Assembly: GCA_038851755.1 (NCBI GenBank)
Contig: JAWCKR010000006.1
Location: forward strand, 2,216 to 66,215
Length of the DNA: 64,000 nt
Direction of reading: 5' to 3'
From: Candidatus Hadarchaeales archaeon
GTDB lineage: Archaea; Hadarchaeota; Hadarchaeia; Hadarchaeales; WYZ-LMO6
Positions 3,238 through 31,054 of this stretch are shown one piece after another; the stretch's first letter is position 1; each line of letters begins with the position of its first letter. A model generated the notes under the pieces. It was not told the DNA's origin, made no database searches, and worked only from the letters and a program-made list of their open reading frames with translations. The translations under genes were made by a program, and so were the position numbers.

Positions 3238-4644
3238 CTACCTGTGGGCCTTCCGGTATACCGCCCTGTACTTCCCCCTCTTCTTCCTTTTTTTCTCCAG
3301 TTCTTCCTCCAGCTCCAGCAGCTCCTCGTAAGGCTCTTCTTTGAAGTCACCCTCCTCGAAAAGTCTGGAAGCGGTTTCCTCCGCCATCTTCACCACTTTT
3401 TCCTCGTCCAGGGTTAAAAGCTTGCGCCTTCTCATGAGGACTCTCCCGTCCACGATTACGGTGTCTACCAGCTCCCCGGTGGAGGCGTAGACCAGATGGG
3501 AGAGCACCTGGTGAAGGGGGGTGAACCTGAGGCTCCGCAGGTCGATCAGGATGAGGTCCGCCTTTTTACCCTCCTCTATGGATCCCACCTCCCCCTCCAT
3601 ACCCAGGGCCCTGGCCCCGTGGAGGGTGGCCATCTCCAGCACGGTCTGTGCGGGCAGGAGGGTGGGGTTCCTTCCCCAGCCCTTGTGGATCAGAGCCGCG
3701 AGCTTCATCTCCTGGAACATGTCCAGGCTGTTGTTGGAGGCCGCCCCGTCCGTCCCCAGCGCCACCGGTATCCCCCTCCCCAGCATGGCGGGCACCGGAG
3801 AAATCCCGGAGGCGAGCTTCAGGTTGCTGGCAGGGTTATGGACGGGCTTCACCCCGCTCCTGGCCATGAGCTCCATCTCTCCCTCGTCCACCCACACGCA
3901 GTGGGCCGCGAGCAGCCTGGGCCCCAGCAGGCCTATGGAGTGGAGGAGTTCCACTGGACTCTTCCCGTACCTTTCCTTCACCTCCCTCACCTCCCTCTCG
4001 GTCTCCGAGAGGTGGATGTGTATCCCCACCCCGTACCTCTCTGCCCTTTCCCTGACCTTCTGGAGGCACTCGGGGGAGCAGGTGTAGGGGGCGTGGGGAC
4101 CGAACATGGTCTGGACCCTTCCATCGAAGGAGCCGTGGTGCTCCCTCACCAGCCTCTCCCCCTTCCTCAGCTCCTCCTCGCACCTGCCGGGTACGCCCAG
4201 CTCTATCATCCCGTAGGAGAGGGAAGCCCTGAGCCCGCTCCTCCCCACCGCCTCCGCCACCTTCTCCATGAAGAAGTACATGTCGGCGAAGCAGGTGGTC
4301 CCGGACTTGATCATCTCCGCGCAGGCCAGCAGGGCCCCCACGTAGCAGTCCTCGGCCTTCAGCCTGGCCTCCACGGGCCAGATCTTCTCCCTCAGCCAGG
4401 GTTCAAGCTCCATGTCGTCGGCGGCCCCCCTGAAGAGGGTCATGGGGGAGTGGGTGTGGGCGTTGATCAGCCCCGGCAGGACCGCCATTCCCCTGGCTTC
4501 TATCACCCGGTCGGCTCCCCCCTTTATTTCCTCCCCCACCCCGGCCACCCGGCTGCCCTCCACCAGCACTGACCCCCTTTTCAGAACCCTCCTCCTGGGG
4601 TCCATGGTCACGAGGTAGCCGTCCTTTATCAACAGCTTTTCCAT
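3238..4644 (-). CDS. mtaD: Amidohydrolase, 5-methylthioadenosine/S-adenosylhomocysteine deaminase family
   Basis: PGLINAHTH, HAPYTC, HIHLSET, HNPASNLKL and GTDGAASNN motifs. Confidence 0.85.
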   Translation of the reverse strand: MEKLLIKDGYLVTMDPRRRVLKRGSVLVEGSRVAGVGEEIKGGADRVIEARGMAVLPGLINAHTHSPMTLFRGAADDMELEPWLREKIWPVEARLKAEDCYVGALLACAEMIKSGTTCFADMYFFMEKVAEAVGRSGLRASLSYGMIELGVPGRCEEELRKGERLVREHHGSFDGRVQTMFGPHAPYTCSPECLQKVRERAERYGVGIHIHLSETEREVREVKERYGKSPVELLHSIGLLGPRLLAAHCVWVDEGEMELMARSGVKPVHNPASNLKLASGISPVPAMLGRGIPVALGTDGAASNNSLDMFQEMKLAALIHKGWGRNPTLLPAQTVLEMATLHGARALGMEGEVGSIEEGKKADLILIDLRSLRFTPLHQVLSHLVYASTGELVDTVIVDGRVLMRRRKLLTLDEEKVVKMAEETASRLFEEGDFKEEPYEELLELEEELEKKRKKRGKYRAVYRKAHR

Positions 4645-4659: not shown

Positions 4660-4765
4660 TGGTGCCCCGGGCGGGATTTGAACCCGCGTCTGTGGCTCGA
4701 TTGGCCTGGACGACTCCTCGCCGTCCATGAGGCCACTATGATTGGCCGGGCTACACCACCGGGGC
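4660..4765 (-). tRNA. tRNA-Glu(CTC) with a 28-nt intron (4701-4728) inside the anticodon
   Basis: GCCCCGG..CCGGGGC-ACCA with a Glu-type D-arm; removing 4701-4728 at the BHB-like sites gives GTGGC-CT CTC GA-GCCAC. Confidence 0.9.
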
Positions 4766-27828: not shown

Positions 27829-28235
27829 CCTTCGGGCTTCAGCTCCAGGGTCTCCCACCTCACCCTTCCTCCCTCCACCACCTCCTTGATCTTCCTCTCC
27901 ACGGGAGTGAGGACGCTCCTCCCCGTCTTCACCTCCAGGAACACCACCTCCGTGGGCTCCCCCCTGCTGTGCCCCTCGAAGATCACGTAGTCCACCGGGG
28001 AGCCTATGAAGCGGGCGTCGGAGGGCTCGTACTTGAACTGTGGGAGGAGGGGGGCCATCTGTTCCCCTATCCTCCCCTTCAGGACGGCCCTGCTCCTCTC
28101 CAGGGCCTCCCTCCTGAGGGTTTCCTCCACTTCAAGCTTCCATCTCTCCAGCTTGCTCCTGAAGAGGGAGAGGAGGAAGAGATAGGCTGCTCCCAGCCCC
28201 AGCAGGAAGCCCAGCAGCAGCCAGAGGGTCTCCAT
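27825..28235 (-). CDS. Membrane-anchored Holliday-junction-resolvase-like endonuclease
   Basis: N-terminal TM helix; SRAVLKGRIGEQ, FIGSPVDY and FLEVKTG PD-(D/E)XK motifs. Confidence 0.85.
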   Translation of the reverse strand: METLWLLLGFLLGLGAAYLFLLSLFRSKLERWKLEVEETLRREALERSRAVLKGRIGEQMAPLLPQFKYEPSDARFIGSPVDYVIFEGHSRGEPTEVVFLEVKTGRSVLTPVERKIKEVVEGGRVRWETLELKPEG

Positions 28236-28388
28236 CCTCCTCTTTTCTGAAAGGAGCAGGTAAAGCCTTTGTATCCAGGCAAAAAGGCTGGGGGAAAATT
28301 CTTGAGTCCTCTTTTAAAAGGAATAAATCCGACTCGAATGAGAAGCAGGGCTATAGGAGGACGGATGGAGGACCTCTAAGGGACCGGA

Positions 28389-30086
28389 ATGGAGGGAGTC
28401 CTGAAAAAGACGGTGAAGCTGAAGCTGAATATAGAGCCTACAGAGTTGGAAGAGGTGATGAGTAAGTACTCAGCCGCCGTGAACTTTTACATCAAGCGCT
28501 GCTTCCAGGTTCTAACCAACAACCGTTGGCTAGGAAAGAGTGAGAGGTTCCAGGCTACCTGTTCGTCGTGCGGGACCGAAGGTACCGTGGTCTCCGTCGG
28601 GTCTCTGGGAAGCTTGTGCGCCGACTGCCGTAGGAACATGCTTAGTTACAATGCCCTGCGCAAACGTTTCACTCCTACCAAAGAGAGGCGCGTACCGGCC
28701 GCAGATAATGTTTACCTCGCGGCTCGTAACTTATCGCCTACCCTCGCCGCTCAGGCTTTTCAGCATGCACAGGCAATTCTCAAGAGCTGGTTTGCCCTGA
28801 AAAAGAAGAGGGATTACGCACTTAGGGACGTGGAGAAGAAGCTAAGGCTCTGGAAGGAAGTCCTGGAAGACAGCGAAGTGGTGGCGGGGGAGGGGAAGAT
28901 TAAAGCACGCGTAGTGGTGCCCCCCAAGGGACGACAGCGTCTGCCTAGGTTCAAGCATGTCCTTCACCCGGAGAACTTCAAAGGAAGGACCCTGAGGGGG
29001 ATAGAGCTAGCCATCGAAAAACTGGAGAGGAGACGTCGCGCACTTTTGAAAGAGCAGTTGCCCCCCAAGTTCCGCGGAGAATCGATGTGGCTTCACAAGA
29101 ACTCGATAAAATTCTTGGACGAGCGGAGGGTCAAGCTCGTGCTGGAAGGGAAGCACATGGAAGTGCAATTTCATGCTTTGGAGGTCGAGCGCGAAAAGAG
29201 CAGAGATTACCTAATGAGGTATGTTCGCTTAGCGCTCGAGATGCAGGAGAGAAACATCCATGCCTATCCCAGGTTGCTCATTGAAAACGGTTCTTGCTTC
29301 CTGGAGTTTCCGGTCAGGATACCCTTTGGGACACCAGAGCCTGACGAAACTTTCGGGGCAGTGGGTATCGACCGTGGGGTCAACTCGCTTATAGCTTTTG
29401 CTGCGGTCAACCGCTACTTGGGCAAGCCCCATCATTTGTGGTTGGCGAGCGGTGGGGAATTGTCCTTGCTTAGGGCGAAGGGAAGGCTGCTCCGGAGGAG
29501 GTTATATGAGGTGGGCAAAGTTCACCGCGAGCAGGGGAAGCGTTTCCGGTTACGCAGGAGATTAAAATCGATGAAGAAAGAGAGTGAGCTCTCGAAACAT
29601 ATCCTGCATGGGATTGCGAAGTCCGTGGTGAGGAAGGCGAAGGAGCTGTATCCCGACGGACGCGTGGTTATAGTAATGGAGAAGCTCGAAGGCCTTCGCC
29701 CGGTGAAAGGGAAGAAGCATGAGCGCTCTTTGAATTTCAAGCTTTCGAGTTTTGCATACAGGAGGCTCGGGGAATACATACATTACAAGGCTCAGGAGGA
29801 GGGAATACCCGTAATTTTCGTACCACCCTCAGGGACCTCCACCAGGTGTTCTAAGTGCGGTTGCGACAATCCCTCTAACAGGTCAGGTGGTTTCTTTAGG
29901 TGCTCCAATTGTGGATTCCAAATGAACGCTGACCTGAACGCTGCAATAAACATTGCCAACCGCTTCTACGAAAATTTTAAAGGCGGAGAAAAACAGAACG
30001 GAATTGGGGCCGAGGAACGCCCGGACCCCTCGGCTCCGAGTAGGTCAAGCTCACCAGAAGGTGAGGAGCGCGCCCCTAACCCCTGA
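28389..30086 (+). CDS. cas12f: Type V-F CRISPR effector, Cas12f2 (Cas14b)-like RuvC nuclease, 565 aa
   Basis: RuvC-I GIDRG, RuvC-II VMEKL, RuvC-III NADLNAAINIA, C-terminal CSKC/CSNC Zn finger, N-terminal CSSC..CADC Zn finger; followed by tracrRNA and repeats. Confidence 0.85.
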   Translation: MEGVLKKTVKLKLNIEPTELEEVMSKYSAAVNFYIKRCFQVLTNNRWLGKSERFQATCSSCGTEGTVVSVGSLGSLCADCRRNMLSYNALRKRFTPTKERRVPAADNVYLAARNLSPTLAAQAFQHAQAILKSWFALKKKRDYALRDVEKKLRLWKEVLEDSEVVAGEGKIKARVVVPPKGRQRLPRFKHVLHPENFKGRTLRGIELAIEKLERRRRALLKEQLPPKFRGESMWLHKNSIKFLDERRVKLVLEGKHMEVQFHALEVEREKSRDYLMRYVRLALEMQERNIHAYPRLLIENGSCFLEFPVRIPFGTPEPDETFGAVGIDRGVNSLIAFAAVNRYLGKPHHLWLASGGELSLLRAKGRLLRRRLYEVGKVHREQGKRFRLRRRLKSMKKESELSKHILHGIAKSVVRKAKELYPDGRVVIVMEKLEGLRPVKGKKHERSLNFKLSSFAYRRLGEYIHYKAQEEGIPVIFVPPSGTSTRCSKCGCDNPSNRSGGFFRCSNCGFQMNADLNAAINIANRFYENFKGGEKQNGIGAEERPDPSAPSRSSSPEGEERAPNP

Positions 30087-30242
30087 AAGAAGGGGGACGG
30101 CAAGCGTGCTCGGGCAGCGTCGCACTGCCAGAGCTCGGACCTGCCCCGCTTTCGAGCGGGATGCAAGGCTCCGGCCCCGATGACATGAGGGGACGGGTCA
30201 GAACGGGCGACGCCTTCCCAACTTTTGAACGTCTTTATAAAC
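30006..30242 (+). ncRNA. Putative tracrRNA of Cas12f
   Basis: Series of hairpins; loop GTCGCA (30119-30124) is complementary to the repeat end TGCGAC; anti-repeat at 30217-30242; exact ends uncertain. Confidence 0.8.
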
Positions 30243-30324
30243 CTTCTTTGTAAAAACCGAAGTTCAAACGGTGGGAACCAGGGAGTCCAGTGGGGCCGTA
30301 CTGGCATCACCAGAAACGAGGGGG

Positions 30325-30469
30325 GTTTCAATAGACTCAGGAGTTGGGTGGGTGATGCGACCACTACGGAGTTGTACTTTTCTCCCTCAGGAGGTGAGGA
30401 TTCTCGCCTTGACGAGGCGAAGATCTTGGGTTGTTTCAATGGACCCAGGAGTTGGGTAGGTCATATCTT
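30325..30469 (+). CRISPR. Minimal CRISPR array: two 37-nt repeats and one 71-nt spacer
   Basis: R1 GTTTCAATAGACTCAGGAGTTGGGTGGGTGATGCGAC (30325-30361); R2 GTTTCAATGGACCCAGGAGTTGGGTAGGTCATATCTT (30433-30469), 28/37 identical and degenerate at the 3' end. Confidence 0.8.
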
Positions 30470-30484
30470 AAAGTTAGATGGGGT

Positions 30485-31054
30485 TTACCTGAGCCTGGCC
30501 CCCAGGTGGGCTAGTGTGGCCTTCTTCACTTCCTCGGCTTTCTTCCTCCCCACCAAGTGCTTCAGGAGCTCAAGGGCGAAGGCGAAGGCAGTGGCCGGTC
30601 CCATGCTGGTGATGATCTTCCCGTCCGCCACCACCAGTCCCCTTGAGGGCTTCCCTCCGCCCTTCTTCAGCTCCGCTTCCATGCCGGGGTAGATGGTGCT
30701 CTTCTTCCCCCTGAGCACCCCAGCCTCTGCGAGGACGGAGGGGGCACCGCAGATGGCAGCCACGATTAACCCCCTCTCAGCCGCTTCCCTCACCAGCTCC
30801 AGCACCTTCCGGTTTTTCCTGAGGTTCTCGTACCCGGGATACCCTCCGGGACAGATCACGGCGTCGAAGTCCCTCACGCTGACTTCCTCCAGCTTGCGGT
30901 CAGGAATCACCTTCACCCCGTGCGATCCCTCCACCGGCGTCTCCAGTCCCGCCGTCACCACCTCCACCCCTCCCCTCCTGAGGAGGTCCACCACCGTCAT
31001 GGCCTCCACCTCCTCGAAGCCCGGGGCCAGGAAGACGAGGGCCTTCACCATCAT
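30485..31054 (-). CDS. DJ-1/PfpI (YajL-like) protein
   Basis: GFEEVEA, CPGG, AAICGAP and TSMGPAT motifs. Confidence 0.92.
   Translation of the reverse strand: MMVKALVFLAPGFEEVEAMTVVDLLRRGGVEVVTAGLETPVEGSHGVKVIPDRKLEEVSVRDFDAVICPGGYPGYENLRKNRKVLELVREAAERGLIVAAICGAPSVLAEAGVLRGKKSTIYPGMEAELKKGGGKPSRGLVVADGKIITSMGPATAFAFALELLKHLVGRKKAEEVKKATLAHLGARLR

What the first reader, a model, noticed from the sequence alone, without database searches (positions are those of the whole stretch)
30006..30242. tracrRNA with Cas12f-type architecture that starts inside the nuclease ORF
Seen: stems 30006-15/30028-37, 30050-55/30060-65 and 30066-73/30104-11 (inner CCCCT/AGGGG). Stem 30113-17/30125-29 has the loop CGTCGCA, and a UUCG-capped stem spans 30136-30173. 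Loop GTCGCA pairs with the last six repeat bases (TGCGAC). CCCAACTTTTGA (30217-28) pairs with repeat TCAGGAGTTGGG (12 bp, 2 G-U), extended by GTCT/AGAC. From memory this mirrors the Un1Cas12f1 tracrRNA, whose stem-3 loop pairs with the repeat 3' end, with covarying sequence. The stop codon (30084-86) lies inside a stem, so the low-complexity protein tail overlaps the RNA, as TnpB omega-RNAs overlap their ORFs. Inference: a retained TnpB-like trait.
Basis: partly seen in the sequence, partly recalled or inferred. Interest (0 to 1): 0.8.

Follow-up and report, generated by a model that had tools for sequence, protein, structure and literature searches.

The report
Cas12f2 tracrRNA overlapping its nuclease gene
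This is the guide-helper RNA (tracrRNA) of a miniature CRISPR nuclease, Cas12f2, in a hot-spring archaeon; its first hairpins lie inside the end of the nuclease gene, probably because this lineage lost its old stop codon rather than because an ancestral transposon trait survived.

Summary
The loop GTCGCA is the exact complement of the last six repeat bases. The anti-repeat pairs with the repeat far better than with shuffled repeats (0 of 2000).

The ORF 28389-30086 is a Cas12f2/Cas14b nuclease (NCBIfam NF049972, 554.8 bits, cut-off 450). Its closest relative with DNA, G037, is 57% identical in protein. Yet G037 keeps the RNA scaffold at 89% nucleotide identity, with two compensatory pair changes and a fully covarying first hairpin.

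The loop/repeat-end pairing covaries in 6 of 6 Cas12f2-type loci: GUCGCA:UGCGAC in two, GUUGCA:UGCAAC in four.

The overlap of about 83 nt is real at sequence level. However, the 34-residue tail is predicted disordered. It is missing from 3 of 3 close homologues, and 4 of 6 loci stop before the first hairpin. So the overlap looks derived and recurrent, not retained.

No RNA data exist. The whole 2.2-kb cassette is a clean insertion that is polymorphic in hot-spring populations.

The parts
28267..30486 (.). Inserted low-GC cassette: 2,217 bp, either 28267-30483 or 28270-30486, with TTT at both junctions. It carries cas12f2, the tracrRNA gene, the leader and a mini array.
   Evidence: GC is 0.48-0.56 inside against 0.60-0.68 in the flanks. 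Metagenome contigs join 28242 to 30484/5 as an empty-site allele. Sister genomes G003 and G004 have the two flanking genes adjacent.
28389..30086 (+). cas12f2 (Cas14b-type) nuclease ORF, 565 aa, stop TGA at 30084-86.
   Evidence: NF049972 at 2e-166, 554.8 bits against a cut-off of 450, aligned over residues 8-530. Pfam Cas12f1-like_TNB. D328, E431 and D515 (my reading as the RuvC catalytic residues: recalled, not tested) and both CxxC..CxxC zinc fingers are invariant in the 4-protein alignment.
29982..30083 (+). Coding DNA for the C-terminal tail, residues 532-565. The tail is low-complexity and lineage-specific.
   Evidence: pLDDT 31-37 with no secondary structure. It lies outside the NCBIfam model. 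It is absent from P0003, P0004 and P0005.
29974..29981 (+). TATA-like ATTTTAAA, about 26 nt upstream of stem 1. Inferred internal promoter of the tracrRNA.
   Evidence: Read directly from the sequence. G037 has a TATA-like box about 23 nt before its own first hairpin. This is inference only.
30004..30039 (+). tracrRNA stem 1: a 12-bp hairpin with a 12-nt loop, lying inside the ORF.
   Evidence: Fold. G037 has a 13-bp hairpin of unrelated stem sequence at the same place, with a similar loop (AA.CCCGGA.C).
30050..30065 (+). tracrRNA stem 2: 6 bp with loop AGAA, lying inside the ORF.
   Evidence: In G037 the stem is identical and the loop is wholly changed to CUUU. The population SNP 30056 A>G falls in the loop.
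30066..30111 (+). tracrRNA three-tier stem 3. The stop codon sits at the end of its inner 5' arm.
   Evidence: -25.7 kcal/mol, 0 of 200 shuffles. Compensatory change 30066/30111 from G-C to A-U in G037. The SNP 30107 T>C turns a G.U pair into G-C.
30113..30129 (+). 5-bp hairpin whose loop (30118-24, CGTCGCA) pairs with the last six repeat bases. Pseudoknot-type anti-repeat:repeat duplex 1.
   Evidence: Compensatory change 30116/30126 from A-U to C-G in G037. Loop and repeat end covary in 6 of 6 loci.
30135..30174 (+). Long UUCG-capped stem. It corresponds in position to stem 4 of the Un1Cas12f1 tracrRNA.
   Evidence: 16 pairs, of which 15 are identical in G037 and one goes from C-G to U.G.
30175..30192 (+). 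Small 4-bp hairpin.
   Evidence: One pair is lost in G037.
30206..30243 (+). 3' anti-repeat (core 30217-28). It pairs with repeat bases 1-35.
   Evidence: -34.9 kcal/mol; 0 of 2000 shuffled repeats reach it; pair I25. No letters are shared between the window and G037 over window 30217-30223, where their repeats also differ.
30234..30241 (+). TATA-like TTTATAAA. [quoted passage not shown]
   Evidence: Read from the sequence. GTCTTTATAAA recurs in G161, and similar boxes occur in G037 and in metagenome relatives. Inference.
30257..30277 (+). Conserved CCGAAGTTC followed by a stretch complementary to the anti-repeat. Function unexplained.
   Evidence: Inverted repeat 30215-33/30259-77, 84% complementary. 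The hairpin has z -3.28, 0 of 200. G037 has a covarying counterpart (8 of 200). The motif is also present in L186.
30325..30361 (+). CRISPR repeat 1, 37 nt, ending GATGCGAC.
   Evidence: Other spacers abut both ends in metagenome contigs, and one contig shows repeat, 37 nt, repeat.
30362..30432 (+). 71-nt inter-repeat stretch (spacer material). Its last 29 nt (30404-32) match the genome's own tRNA-Val(GAC) gene.
   Evidence: 22-nt perfect match at E 3.8e-5, with 28 of 29 identical in the alignment. ARAGORN calls tRNA-Val. No phage match.
30433..30469 (+). Terminal repeat copy, degenerate at its 3' end. It lacks the TGCGAC that pairs with the loop.
   Evidence: 84% identity to repeat 1 over 37 nt (30320-56 against 30428-64); alignment.

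Best explanation
The region 30004 to about 30245 (+) is the tracrRNA gene of a type V-F2 (Cas12f2/Cas14b) CRISPR system. The system sits on a 2.2-kb inserted cassette.

How it most likely works:
- The RNA folds into 5' hairpins (stems 1-3), a 5-bp hairpin, a long UUCG-capped stem, a small hairpin and a 3' anti-repeat.
- The loop of the 5-bp hairpin (GUCGCA) pairs with the last six bases of the repeat (UGCGAC). This forms the pseudoknot that places the guide.
- The 3' anti-repeat pairs with the 5' and middle part of the repeat.
- The tracrRNA:crRNA pair then loads Cas12f2 for DNA cleavage. By analogy with characterised Cas12f2 enzymes, the target would be double-stranded DNA next to a T-rich PAM.

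What is shown: the structure, the complementarity and the covariation.
What is inferred: transcription, RNA ends, protein binding and cleavage.

Stems 1, 2 and the 5' half of stem 3 (30004-30086, about 83 nt) are also read as the last 27 codons and stop codon of cas12f2. I read this overlap as derived. This lineage lost the family's usual stop codon, and translation now runs 34 codons into the adjacent RNA gene. The result is a disordered, probably dispensable tail.

The RNA is probably made from an internal TATA-like promoter at 29974-81. Processing from the mRNA 3' end is the alternative route.

Sub-confidences: real tracrRNA 0.9; DNA-level overlap of at least the stem-3 arm 0.85; overlap derived rather than ancestral 0.65.
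For: 1. The protein is Cas12f2: NF049972 554.8 bits against a cut-off of 450. D328, E431, D515 and the zinc-finger cysteines are invariant in the 4-protein alignment; reading the first three as the RuvC catalytic residues is recalled, not tested.
2. All stems fold as described.
3. The RNA scaffold is kept far better than the protein. G037 is 57% identical in protein but 89% in DNA over window 30044-30216.
5. 98.9% of cells are paired, against 35-50% when partners are slid by 1-3 columns.
6. Stem 1 has no stem sequence in common with G037's hairpin, yet both are hairpins with a similar loop at the same position.
7. The loop is complementary to the last six repeat bases in 6 of 6 loci, once per locus, always in a hairpin loop. 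It reads GUCGCA/UGCGAC in the window and G037, and GUUGCA/UGCAAC in L186, L023, L024 and L199.
8. The anti-repeat is significant in the window (0 of 2000), L186 (0 of 500), L023 (1 of 500) and L024 (9 of 500).
9. G.U pairs in stems 1 and 3 and in the anti-repeat exist only on the + strand.
10. Population data: the SNP 30107 T>C strengthens a pair and 30056 A>G lies in a loop. Several other contigs carry the same scaffold, and several different spacers flank the repeat.
11. The tail is derived. It is absent in 3 of 3 close homologues, has pLDDT 31-37 and lies outside the family model. G037's stop is 1 nt before hairpin 1.
12. The architecture matches Un1Cas12f1 as described by Xiao 2021.
Against: - There are no RNA data. 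No RNA holder is on record, so the 5' and 3' ends, and expression itself, are unproven.
- Only one close relative has DNA available. With two sequences the shuffle control is uninformative (124 of 500).
- The anti-repeat is not better than shuffled repeats in G037 (586 of 2000) or in L199 (290 of 500).
- In the window and G037 the loop could instead pair within the RNA, with GCGACGC at 30207-13 (7 bp). The four distant loci lack that alternative partner.
- The 5-bp hairpin alone is not unusually stable (24 of 200). The whole-region z-score is only -2.45.
- RNAalifold prefers a different fold for 30133-30210.
- 'Derived' rests on few lineages. C-terminal tails of 30 aa or more occur in 4 of 18 near-full-length family representatives, and I could not see their DNA. 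A wider, older habit of overlap is therefore not excluded.
- In the second allele the tail carries 2 synonymous changes and 1 non-synonymous change. That is too few to say it is unconstrained.
Confidence: 0.7

Rival explanations
1. The overlap is an ancestral trait kept from TnpB, whose omega RNA overlaps the 3' end of tnpB. Relatives without overlap would then have lost it secondarily.
For: - TnpB omega RNAs overlap the ORF end, and the overlapped TnpB C-terminal domain is disordered and dispensable (Nakagawa 2023, PMC10097598, passages). The tail here is likewise disordered.
- Cas12n is reported to carry its tracrRNA in an unstructured tail (bioRxiv 10.64898/2026.03.27.714800, passages).
- In all 6 loci the first hairpin lies within 26 nt of the stop codon or spans it.
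- A second locus, L023, also overlaps.
- Non-homologous tails of 30-49 aa occur in 4 of 18 near-full-length representatives.
Against: - The closest relative and 3 of 3 close homologues lack the tail.
- 4 of 6 loci stop before the first hairpin.
- The two overlaps lie in different branches, involve non-homologous hairpins and have unrelated tail sequences.
- The guide here is a separate crRNA from an array, not contiguous with the scaffold as in an omega RNA.
Confidence: 0.17
2. There is no functional overlap. The mature tracrRNA starts downstream of the stop codon, or is trimmed to there. Stems 1-2 would be an mRNA 3'-end element or dispensable leader that never forms part of the active ribonucleoprotein.
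For: - In Un1Cas12f1, stem 1 makes no protein contact and can be deleted (Xiao 2021). Truncating 18-21 nt from the tracrRNA 5' end (the stem 1 region) even raised indel frequency (Kim 2021).
- TnpB-bound omega RNA is processed at its 5' side.
- Sequence-level conservation with G037 starts only at 30044.
Against: - Stem 3 (30066-30111) is the most stable element (0 of 200 shuffles) and the best conserved, and it carries a compensatory change.
- It sits 1 nt from the loop-bearing hairpin and contains the stop codon. A scaffold starting after 30086 would therefore lose its 5' arm.
- Stem 1 covaries completely with G037's hairpin. That argues for selection on the structure.
Confidence: 0.1
3. It is a decaying relic. 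The cassette would be an inactive remnant with a collapsed array, and the structure would merely be inherited from a once-functional ancestor.
For: - The window has only one intact repeat and a degenerate second copy, separated by an odd 71-nt stretch.
- The cassette holds no adaptation genes.
- In two runs the contigs of the empty-site allele have higher depth than the island contigs.
Against: - Two alleles that differ at 21 sites over 1,866 nt both keep the ORF open with no gaps.
- The catalytic-position and zinc-finger residues are intact.
- Metagenome contigs show further repeat-spacer units and several different spacers next to this repeat.
- The differences from G037 avoid or compensate paired positions.
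Confidence: 0.03

Closest known systems
Un1Cas12f1 (Cas14a1) tracrRNA:crRNA, solved in PDB 7C7L and 7L48/7L49
   Same: - Same order of elements: 5' stems, then a 5-bp hairpin whose 6-nt loop pairs with the repeat-derived part of the crRNA, then a long stem, then a 3' anti-repeat forming a second duplex (Xiao 2021).
- The gene lies between the nuclease gene and the array on the same strand.
- The 5' stem is peripheral.
   Different: - The protein belongs to a different subtype, Cas12f2. PDB Cas12f1 chains match only the C-terminal part, at E 1e-10 to 1e-14.
- The window and its closest relative have the loop/repeat pair GUCGCA/UGCGAC, where four more distant Cas12f2-type loci have GUUGCA/UGCAAC. 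I did not see the Un1 letters in any call.
- There is an extra three-tier stem and an extra small hairpin.
- The first 83 nt overlap the ORF.
Cas12f2/Cas14b systems (Mi1, Mi2 and AuCas12f2; Karvelis 2020, PMC7229846)
   Same: - Same protein family by the NCBIfam model.
- Same locus plan: nuclease gene, putative tracrRNA region, array.
- Those enzymes cleave dsDNA next to a T-rich PAM.
   Different: - In that paper the tracrRNA is only a 'putative' intergenic region. I saw no structure or ends for it; its supplements are closed.
- The cassette here has no cas1/cas2/cas4, unlike G052 where cas1 is adjacent.
- The host is a hot-spring archaeon from a small phylum (66 genomes held). The published examples come from Micrarchaeota archaea (Mi1, Mi2) and an Aureabacteria bacterium (Au).
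TnpB omega RNA (ISDra2; Nakagawa 2023, PMC10097598)
   Same: - The RNA scaffold starts inside the 3' end of the nuclease ORF.
- The overlapped protein part is disordered and, in TnpB, dispensable.
- A pseudoknot precedes the guide.
   Different: - An omega RNA is a single RNA with its guide attached, and it ends at the transposon end. Here the guide comes from a separate CRISPR array.
- The overlap here is short (83 nt of about 240) and is not shared by the closest relatives.
Cas12n (type V-N) tracrRNA inside an unstructured C-terminal tail
   Same: An unstructured C-terminal tail whose coding DNA doubles as tracrRNA (as reported in bioRxiv 10.64898/2026.03.27.714800).
   Different: - In Cas12n this is described as a subtype-wide feature that holds the tracrRNA. 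Here only the first third of the RNA is overlapped, and only in some loci.
- That preprint reports no unstructured tail like Cas12n's in any of its novel subtypes.

Membership tests
Cas12f2 (type V-F2, Cas14b) effector | Score above the curated cut-off of NCBIfam NF049972 | tested here: met
   554.8 bits against a cut-off of 450, E 2e-166, model positions 1-523 of 524.
Cas12f2 (type V-F2, Cas14b) effector | Intact RuvC catalytic residues and zinc fingers | tested here: met
   D328, E431, D515 and C58/C61/C77/C80 plus C487/C490/C505/C508 are invariant in the 4-protein alignment. Their roles are inferred from family knowledge, not assayed.
Cas12f2 (type V-F2, Cas14b) effector | Adjacent CRISPR array downstream on the same strand | tested here: met
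   Repeat 30325-61 and degenerate copy 30433-69. More units appear in population contigs.
Type V-F tracrRNA | Encoded between effector gene and array, on the same strand as the array | tested here: met
   30004-30245 lies between the conserved protein core (ending at about 29981) and repeat 1. G.U pairs fix the strand.
Type V-F tracrRNA | 3' anti-repeat complementary to the repeat | tested here: met
   -34.9 kcal/mol, 0 of 2000 shuffled repeats. Caveat: not significant in G037 (586 of 2000) or L199 (290 of 500).
Type V-F tracrRNA | Loop of a short hairpin pairs with the 3' end of the repeat (pseudoknot-type duplex next to the guide) | tested here: met
   Exact 6-nt complement, present once, in a hairpin loop, in 6 of 6 loci, with a C:G to U:A covariation between groups. 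The physical pairing itself was not tested.
Type V-F tracrRNA | Secondary structure conserved in relatives | tested here: met
   46 pairs, 98.9% of cells paired in the window plus G037. 2 compensatory pairs, 1 one-sided change, 1 broken pair. Stem 1 covaries fully. Only two sequences, so the shuffle control is weak (124 of 500).
Type V-F tracrRNA | Expressed, and bound by the effector together with crRNA | not testable with these tools
   No run on record as RNA holds the stretch.
Rfam-curated RNA family | Match to any Rfam 15 model | tested here: not met
   No match at gathering score or at E up to 1 over 29900-30520.
TnpB-type omega RNA arrangement | [quoted passage not shown] | tested here: met
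   The stop codon 30084-86 lies inside stem 3, and stems 1-2 are wholly inside the ORF. This is at DNA level only; RNA ends are unmapped.
TnpB-type omega RNA arrangement | Overlap shared by relatives (a family trait) | tested here: not met
   4 of 6 loci stop 1-26 nt before the first hairpin. 3 of 3 close homologues lack the tail.
TnpB-type omega RNA arrangement | Guide contiguous with the scaffold at the element's right end; IS200/IS605 context | tested here: not met
   The guide comes from a separate repeat-spacer array. No Y1 transposase (PF01797) was found in the 93%-complete genome, and the genome has a single copy.

The most novel reading that the evidence does not exclude
The 2,217-bp unit (cas12f2, tracrRNA, leader, mini array) may itself still be a mobile cassette. 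On this reading it is a CRISPR-bearing descendant of a TnpB element that inserts precisely, and whose compact ORF/RNA overlap reflects selection for small size.

Facts that leave this open:
- TTT at both junctions.
- No transposase gene in the cassette.
- Presence/absence polymorphism within hot-spring populations.
- Absence from three sister species.

The conserved hairpin that pairs the anti-repeat with a downstream repeat-like stretch (30215-33/30259-77) could then be a vestige of the unsplit, omega-RNA-like single guide.
Probability: 0.1. Interest if true: 0.8.

Novelty: new member of a known kind. Interest (0 to 1): 0.4.

Why it matters
- It gives a comparative, covariation-backed secondary structure for a Cas12f2 (Cas14b) tracrRNA. 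In the papers I could search, this RNA appears only as a 'putative' intergenic region.
- It shows that the pseudoknot-type loop/repeat pairing known from Cas12f1 structures also holds, and covaries, in Cas12f2.
- It documents that the nuclease ORF end and the tracrRNA start abut so closely in this family that the stop codon drifts into the RNA gene in some lineages. That is a small natural example of how TnpB-like and Cas12n-like overlaps can arise or re-arise.
- Practical points. The cassette is a complete nuclease-plus-guide unit of under 2.3 kb from a hot-spring archaeon, so it may be heat-tolerant. The last 34 residues are probably removable, but any recoding of them would also alter the guide-helper RNA.
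- The basic finding is what a specialist would expect next to a Cas12f2 gene.

Tried and rejected
- Expression data. The look-up of sequencing runs listed no holder on record as RNA. Two runs labelled metatranscriptomic are flagged as probably DNA, and all were laid only as contigs. Nothing can be said about transcripts or RNA ends.
- More close relatives.
  - The search for related loci in genome contigs with the single protein found none.
  - With the alignment it returned mostly TnpB-like loci, because the pattern DLNAAINI is generic. Only L023 and L024 were full length.
  - The metagenome scan was likewise swamped.
  - The viral scan found none. Exact tracrRNA-core patterns in viral contigs gave 0 hits.
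  - The DNA search of the order found only G037 (3 of 65 genomes matched, counting G000 and a 25-nt chance-level hit).
  - NF049972, with a match over the cut-off: 3 of 66 genomes in the window's phylum, 1 of 401 genomes in G066's phylum, and 0 of 401 in G067's phylum.
- The rival that a minus-strand ORF (29966-30439) explains the conservation is rejected. The window and G037 differ by two separate 1-nt indels and a 7-nt gap within it.
- The intramolecular partner GCGACGC for the loop was considered. It is present only in the window and G037, and absent in the 4 distant loci.
- Spacer targets. There was no phage match for the 71-nt stretch (66 nt of it searched). The only own-genome match is the tRNA-Val fragment.
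- IS200/IS605 mobility. No Y1 transposase was found and no convincing terminal repeats. The left-end similarity to G037's upstream region is weak, and there is none at the right end.
- I did not build a covariance model. There are too few alignable sequences.
- Supplements of Karvelis 2020 and of the structure papers are closed and may hold Cas12f2 tracrRNA sequences. Harrington 2018 (the Cas14 discovery paper) is recalled only and was not seen.
- The statement that an ORF overlap is not described for Cas12f2 rests on searches and on the passages read.


Full report
**What is there**

The finding lies at the 3' end of a 565-codon ORF, 28389-30086 on the + strand. The protein scores 554.8 bits on NCBIfam NF049972 'type V CRISPR-associated effector Cas12f2' (cut-off 450, E 2e-166). 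The alignment covers residues 8-530, so the last 35 or so residues fall outside the model. Pfam finds the Cas12f1-like TNB domain. Solved structures match only distantly, as Cas12f1 and TnpB chains at E 1e-10 to 1e-14 over the C-terminal part.

Downstream there is one 37-nt repeat (30325-61, ending GATGCGAC). A second copy, starting 108 nt after the first, is degenerate at its 3' end. The genome is 1.25 Mb in 26 contigs and 93% complete. It holds one copy of the gene and no other array with this repeat.

**The observation**

- Stem 1: 12 bp at 30004-15/30028-39.
- Stem 2: 30050-55/30060-65.
- A three-tier stem: 30066-30111 (0 of 200 shuffles as stable).
- A 5-bp hairpin: 30113-17/30125-29 with loop CGTCGCA.
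- A UUCG-capped stem: 30135-74.
- A further 4-bp hairpin: 30175-92.

The stop codon 30084-86 ends the inner 5' arm of the three-tier stem. GTCGCA is the exact complement of repeat bases 32-37 and occurs once in the region. The anti-repeat 30206-43 pairs with repeat bases 1-35 at -34.9 kcal/mol. Shuffled repeats average -18.3, and 0 of 2000 reach the observed value. The whole-region z-score is modest at -2.45, and the 5-bp hairpin alone is unremarkable (24 of 200). Rfam has no matching family.

**Comparative evidence**

The protein is rare. Only 4 proteins reach E 1e-20 in the 5.8-billion-sequence search, and 19 reach 1e-30 among the 1.84 billion representatives.

The one close relative with DNA is G037, locus L004, at 57% protein identity. 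It has a true five-repeat array whose repeat differs but also ends GATGCGAC. Its DNA is 89% identical to window 30044-30216, so the RNA scaffold is far better kept than the protein.

There are 21 differences in that core.
- Four form two compensatory pairs: 30066/30111 from G-C to A-U, and 30116/30126 from A-U to C-G.
- One keeps a wobble pair, one breaks a terminal pair, and one is a deleted paired base counted as a gap.
- 98.9% of cells pair, against 35-50% when partners are slid by 1-3 columns.
- With only two sequences the shuffle control is uninformative (124 of 500).

The loop of stem 2 is wholly different (AGAA against CUUU) on an identical stem. Stem 1 shares no stem sequence with G037. 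Yet G037 has a 13-bp hairpin (0 of 200 shuffles) at the same position with a similar loop.

**The loop/repeat pairing across the family**

I examined four more distant Cas12f2-type loci:
- L186 (G052), 689.8 bits.
- L199 (G161), 586.5 bits.
- L023, 388.5 bits, which is below the cut-off.
- L024, not scored against NF049972; 30% protein identity to the window protein.

Their repeats end ATGCAAC. Each has, between gene and array, one hairpin whose loop holds GTTGCA. So in 6 of 6 loci the complement of the last six repeat bases occurs exactly once, in a hairpin loop. The letters covary: GUCGCA:UGCGAC in two loci and GUUGCA:UGCAAC in four. The hairpin stems differ as well (GGCAG, GGCCG, GCGG, ACTG, GCTG, GCGCAC).

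An alternative intramolecular partner, GCGACGC at 30207, exists only in the window and G037.

This matches the solved Un1Cas12f1 guide. There, the loop of a 5-bp stem 3 forms anti-repeat:repeat duplex 1, the tracrRNA 3' end forms duplex 2, and stem 1 is dispensable (Xiao 2021, PMC8053092, passages; Kim 2021, PMC8763643, passages).

The anti-repeat is significant in L186 (0 of 500), L023 (1 of 500) and L024 (9 of 500). It is not significant in G037 (586 of 2000) or L199 (290 of 500).

**Population data**

I laid Logan contigs of four hot-spring metagenome runs on the region.
- A second allele differs at 21 sites over 28229-30094 and has no gaps, so the ORF tail stays open.
- 30056 A>G falls in the loop of stem 2. 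30107 T>C turns a G.U pair into G-C.
- In the tail, 29984 and 30056 are synonymous and 30004 changes I to N. 29981 is also synonymous but falls in codon 531, the last codon before the tail.
- Other contigs match only 30062-30218, with 13 differences, and then diverge. These are related scaffolds from other loci.
- One of them has a 7-bp stem 2 capped by UUCG. Another has the loop CGCCGCA.
- One contig shows repeat, 37 nt, repeat. Several different spacers abut the repeat. This fixes the repeat at 30325-61 and shows that the array varies in nature.

**Is the overlap ancestral?**

At DNA level the overlap is plain. Stems 1 and 2 and the 5' arm of stem 3 (30004-86) are read as codons 539-565 plus the stop. 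Several results point to a derived state:
- The tail (residues 532-565) is predicted disordered, with pLDDT 31-37 after a last helix at 514-531 (the model is only moderate overall, mean pLDDT 68).
- The three close homologues end 8-14 residues after the NRFYE motif.
- In G037 the stop lies 1 nt before hairpin 1. In L199 the gap is 5 nt, in L024 5 nt, and in L186 about 25 nt.
- In L023 the stop lies inside the hairpin that is homologous to L024's second hairpin. This is a second, independent overlap with an unrelated tail.
- Among 18 near-full-length representatives with E up to 1e-30, four have 31-49 unaligned C-terminal residues and two have about 20. These tails are unlike each other.

I therefore read the overlap as derived and recurrent. 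The ORF end and the RNA start abut so tightly that losing a stop codon extends translation into the RNA gene. With DNA for so few lineages, I give this reading 0.65.

Known parallels are TnpB and Cas12n. The disordered C-terminal domain of TnpB overlaps its omega RNA and is dispensable (Nakagawa 2023, PMC10097598, passages). Cas12n is reported to hold its tracrRNA in an unstructured tail (bioRxiv 10.64898/2026.03.27.714800, passages). My literature searches turned up no description of such an overlap for Cas12f2. Karvelis 2020 (PMC7229846, passages) used a 'putative tracrRNA' region between gene and repeats and showed T-rich-PAM dsDNA cleavage for three Cas12f2 enzymes.

**Likely mechanism**

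Structure, complementarity and covariation are shown. The rest is inferred.
- A TATA-like box, ATTTTAAA at 29974-81, lies about 26 nt before stem 1. G037 has one about 23 nt before its own hairpin. The tracrRNA could therefore start near 30004 from a promoter inside the ORF end. Processing from the mRNA is the alternative.
- T-rich runs after the anti-repeat (30223-50) would suit archaeal termination.
- A second TATA-like box, TTTATAAA at 30234-41, recurs in G161, G037 and metagenome relatives. It probably drives the leader and array.
- The loop/repeat duplex and the anti-repeat duplex would assemble the tracrRNA:crRNA pair on Cas12f2.

**Context**

- The cassette is a low-GC island.
- Metagenome contigs carry an empty-site allele, at higher contig depth than the island in two runs (2874 against 554, and 774 against 176). 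Contig depth is only a rough guide.
- Sister genomes G003 and G004 have the flanking genes adjacent. G002 also lacks the island, and in G001 only the downstream flank matched.
- Alignment places the insertion at GTAAAGCC/TTT/ACCTGAGC, with TTT at both junctions. The inserted segment is 2,217 bp.
- The flanking genes are a Holliday-resolvase-related endonuclease and a DJ-1/PfpI protein.
- No Y1 transposase was found. A cas1 gene lies on another contig.
- How the cassette moved is unknown.

**Verdict**

This is a real Cas12f2 tracrRNA, well supported by comparison and of the known type V-F design. It has a short overlap with the nuclease ORF that is probably secondary. The basic finding is expected next to a Cas12f2 gene. 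The overlap, the family-wide covariation of the pseudoknot pairing and the mobile-looking mini cassette add moderate interest.

Noticed in passing
window 28243-30486; L192 1471-1501; L193 1491-1498: The cas12f2-tracrRNA-array cassette is a clean 2,217-bp insertion with TTT at both junctions. It sits in a near-palindromic intergenic site (GTAAAGCC TTT AC). It is absent from three sister species (G003, G004, G002). In hot-spring metagenomes it is polymorphic, and the contigs of the empty-site allele have higher depth in two runs. The cassette holds no transposase or integrase gene.
   Followed up: partly
window 30404-30432; L197 950-1025 (-): The last 29 nt before the degenerate second repeat are 28 of 29 identical to the genome's own tRNA-Val(GAC) gene, from the anticodon arm to the start of the T stem. 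The inter-repeat stretch is 71 nt, about twice the 37-nt spacer seen in a population contig. It could be a spacer taken from the attachment site of a tRNA-integrating element, or a self-match.
   Followed up: partly
window 30215-30233 / 30259-30277; L004 3328-3338 / 3369-3379: The anti-repeat can also pair in cis with a downstream repeat-like stretch (19 nt, 84% complementary; z -3.28, 0 of 200 shuffles). G037 has a covarying counterpart. The 3' arm begins with CCGAAGTTC, which is conserved in the window (30257-65), in G037 and in G052. The loop holds a TATA-like box. Function unknown: it could mask the anti-repeat, mark the start of the leader transcript, or be a vestige of an unsplit single guide.
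   Followed up: partly
metagenome contigs laid on window 30062-30218: Several contigs from other loci or organisms in the same hot springs carry the same tracrRNA scaffold, with about 8% differences and different anti-repeats. One has the loop CGCCGCA instead of CGTCGCA, which predicts a repeat ending TGCGGC. Depth over 30040-30166 is several-fold above the rest of the island.
   Followed up: no
L023 4620-4648, stop codon 4627-4629: In a Woykebacteria MAG the Cas12f2-like ORF (388.5 bits, below the NCBIfam cut-off) also ends inside a hairpin. That hairpin is homologous to the second tracrRNA-region hairpin of L024. This is an independent ORF/RNA overlap.
   Followed up: partly
proteins P0008, P0009, P0011, P0012, P0016, P0017, P0018: Family representatives carry C-terminal tails of 20-49 residues after the last conserved motif, and the tails are not homologous to each other. 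This is what ORFs running into downstream non-coding DNA would produce. Their DNA could not be fetched.
   Followed up: no
G000:C2:117701-118573 (L198); G052:C22:11987-12826: The genome has a cas1 gene on another contig, so a second CRISPR system is present. In G052 cas1 lies directly upstream of cas12f2 (a full Cas14b-type locus), whereas no cas1 was found in G037 (92% complete). The cassette in the window has no adaptation genes.
   Followed up: no
window 4663-4765 (-): A 103-nt tRNA match, long enough to hold an intron. That would fit an archaeal genome.
   Followed up: no
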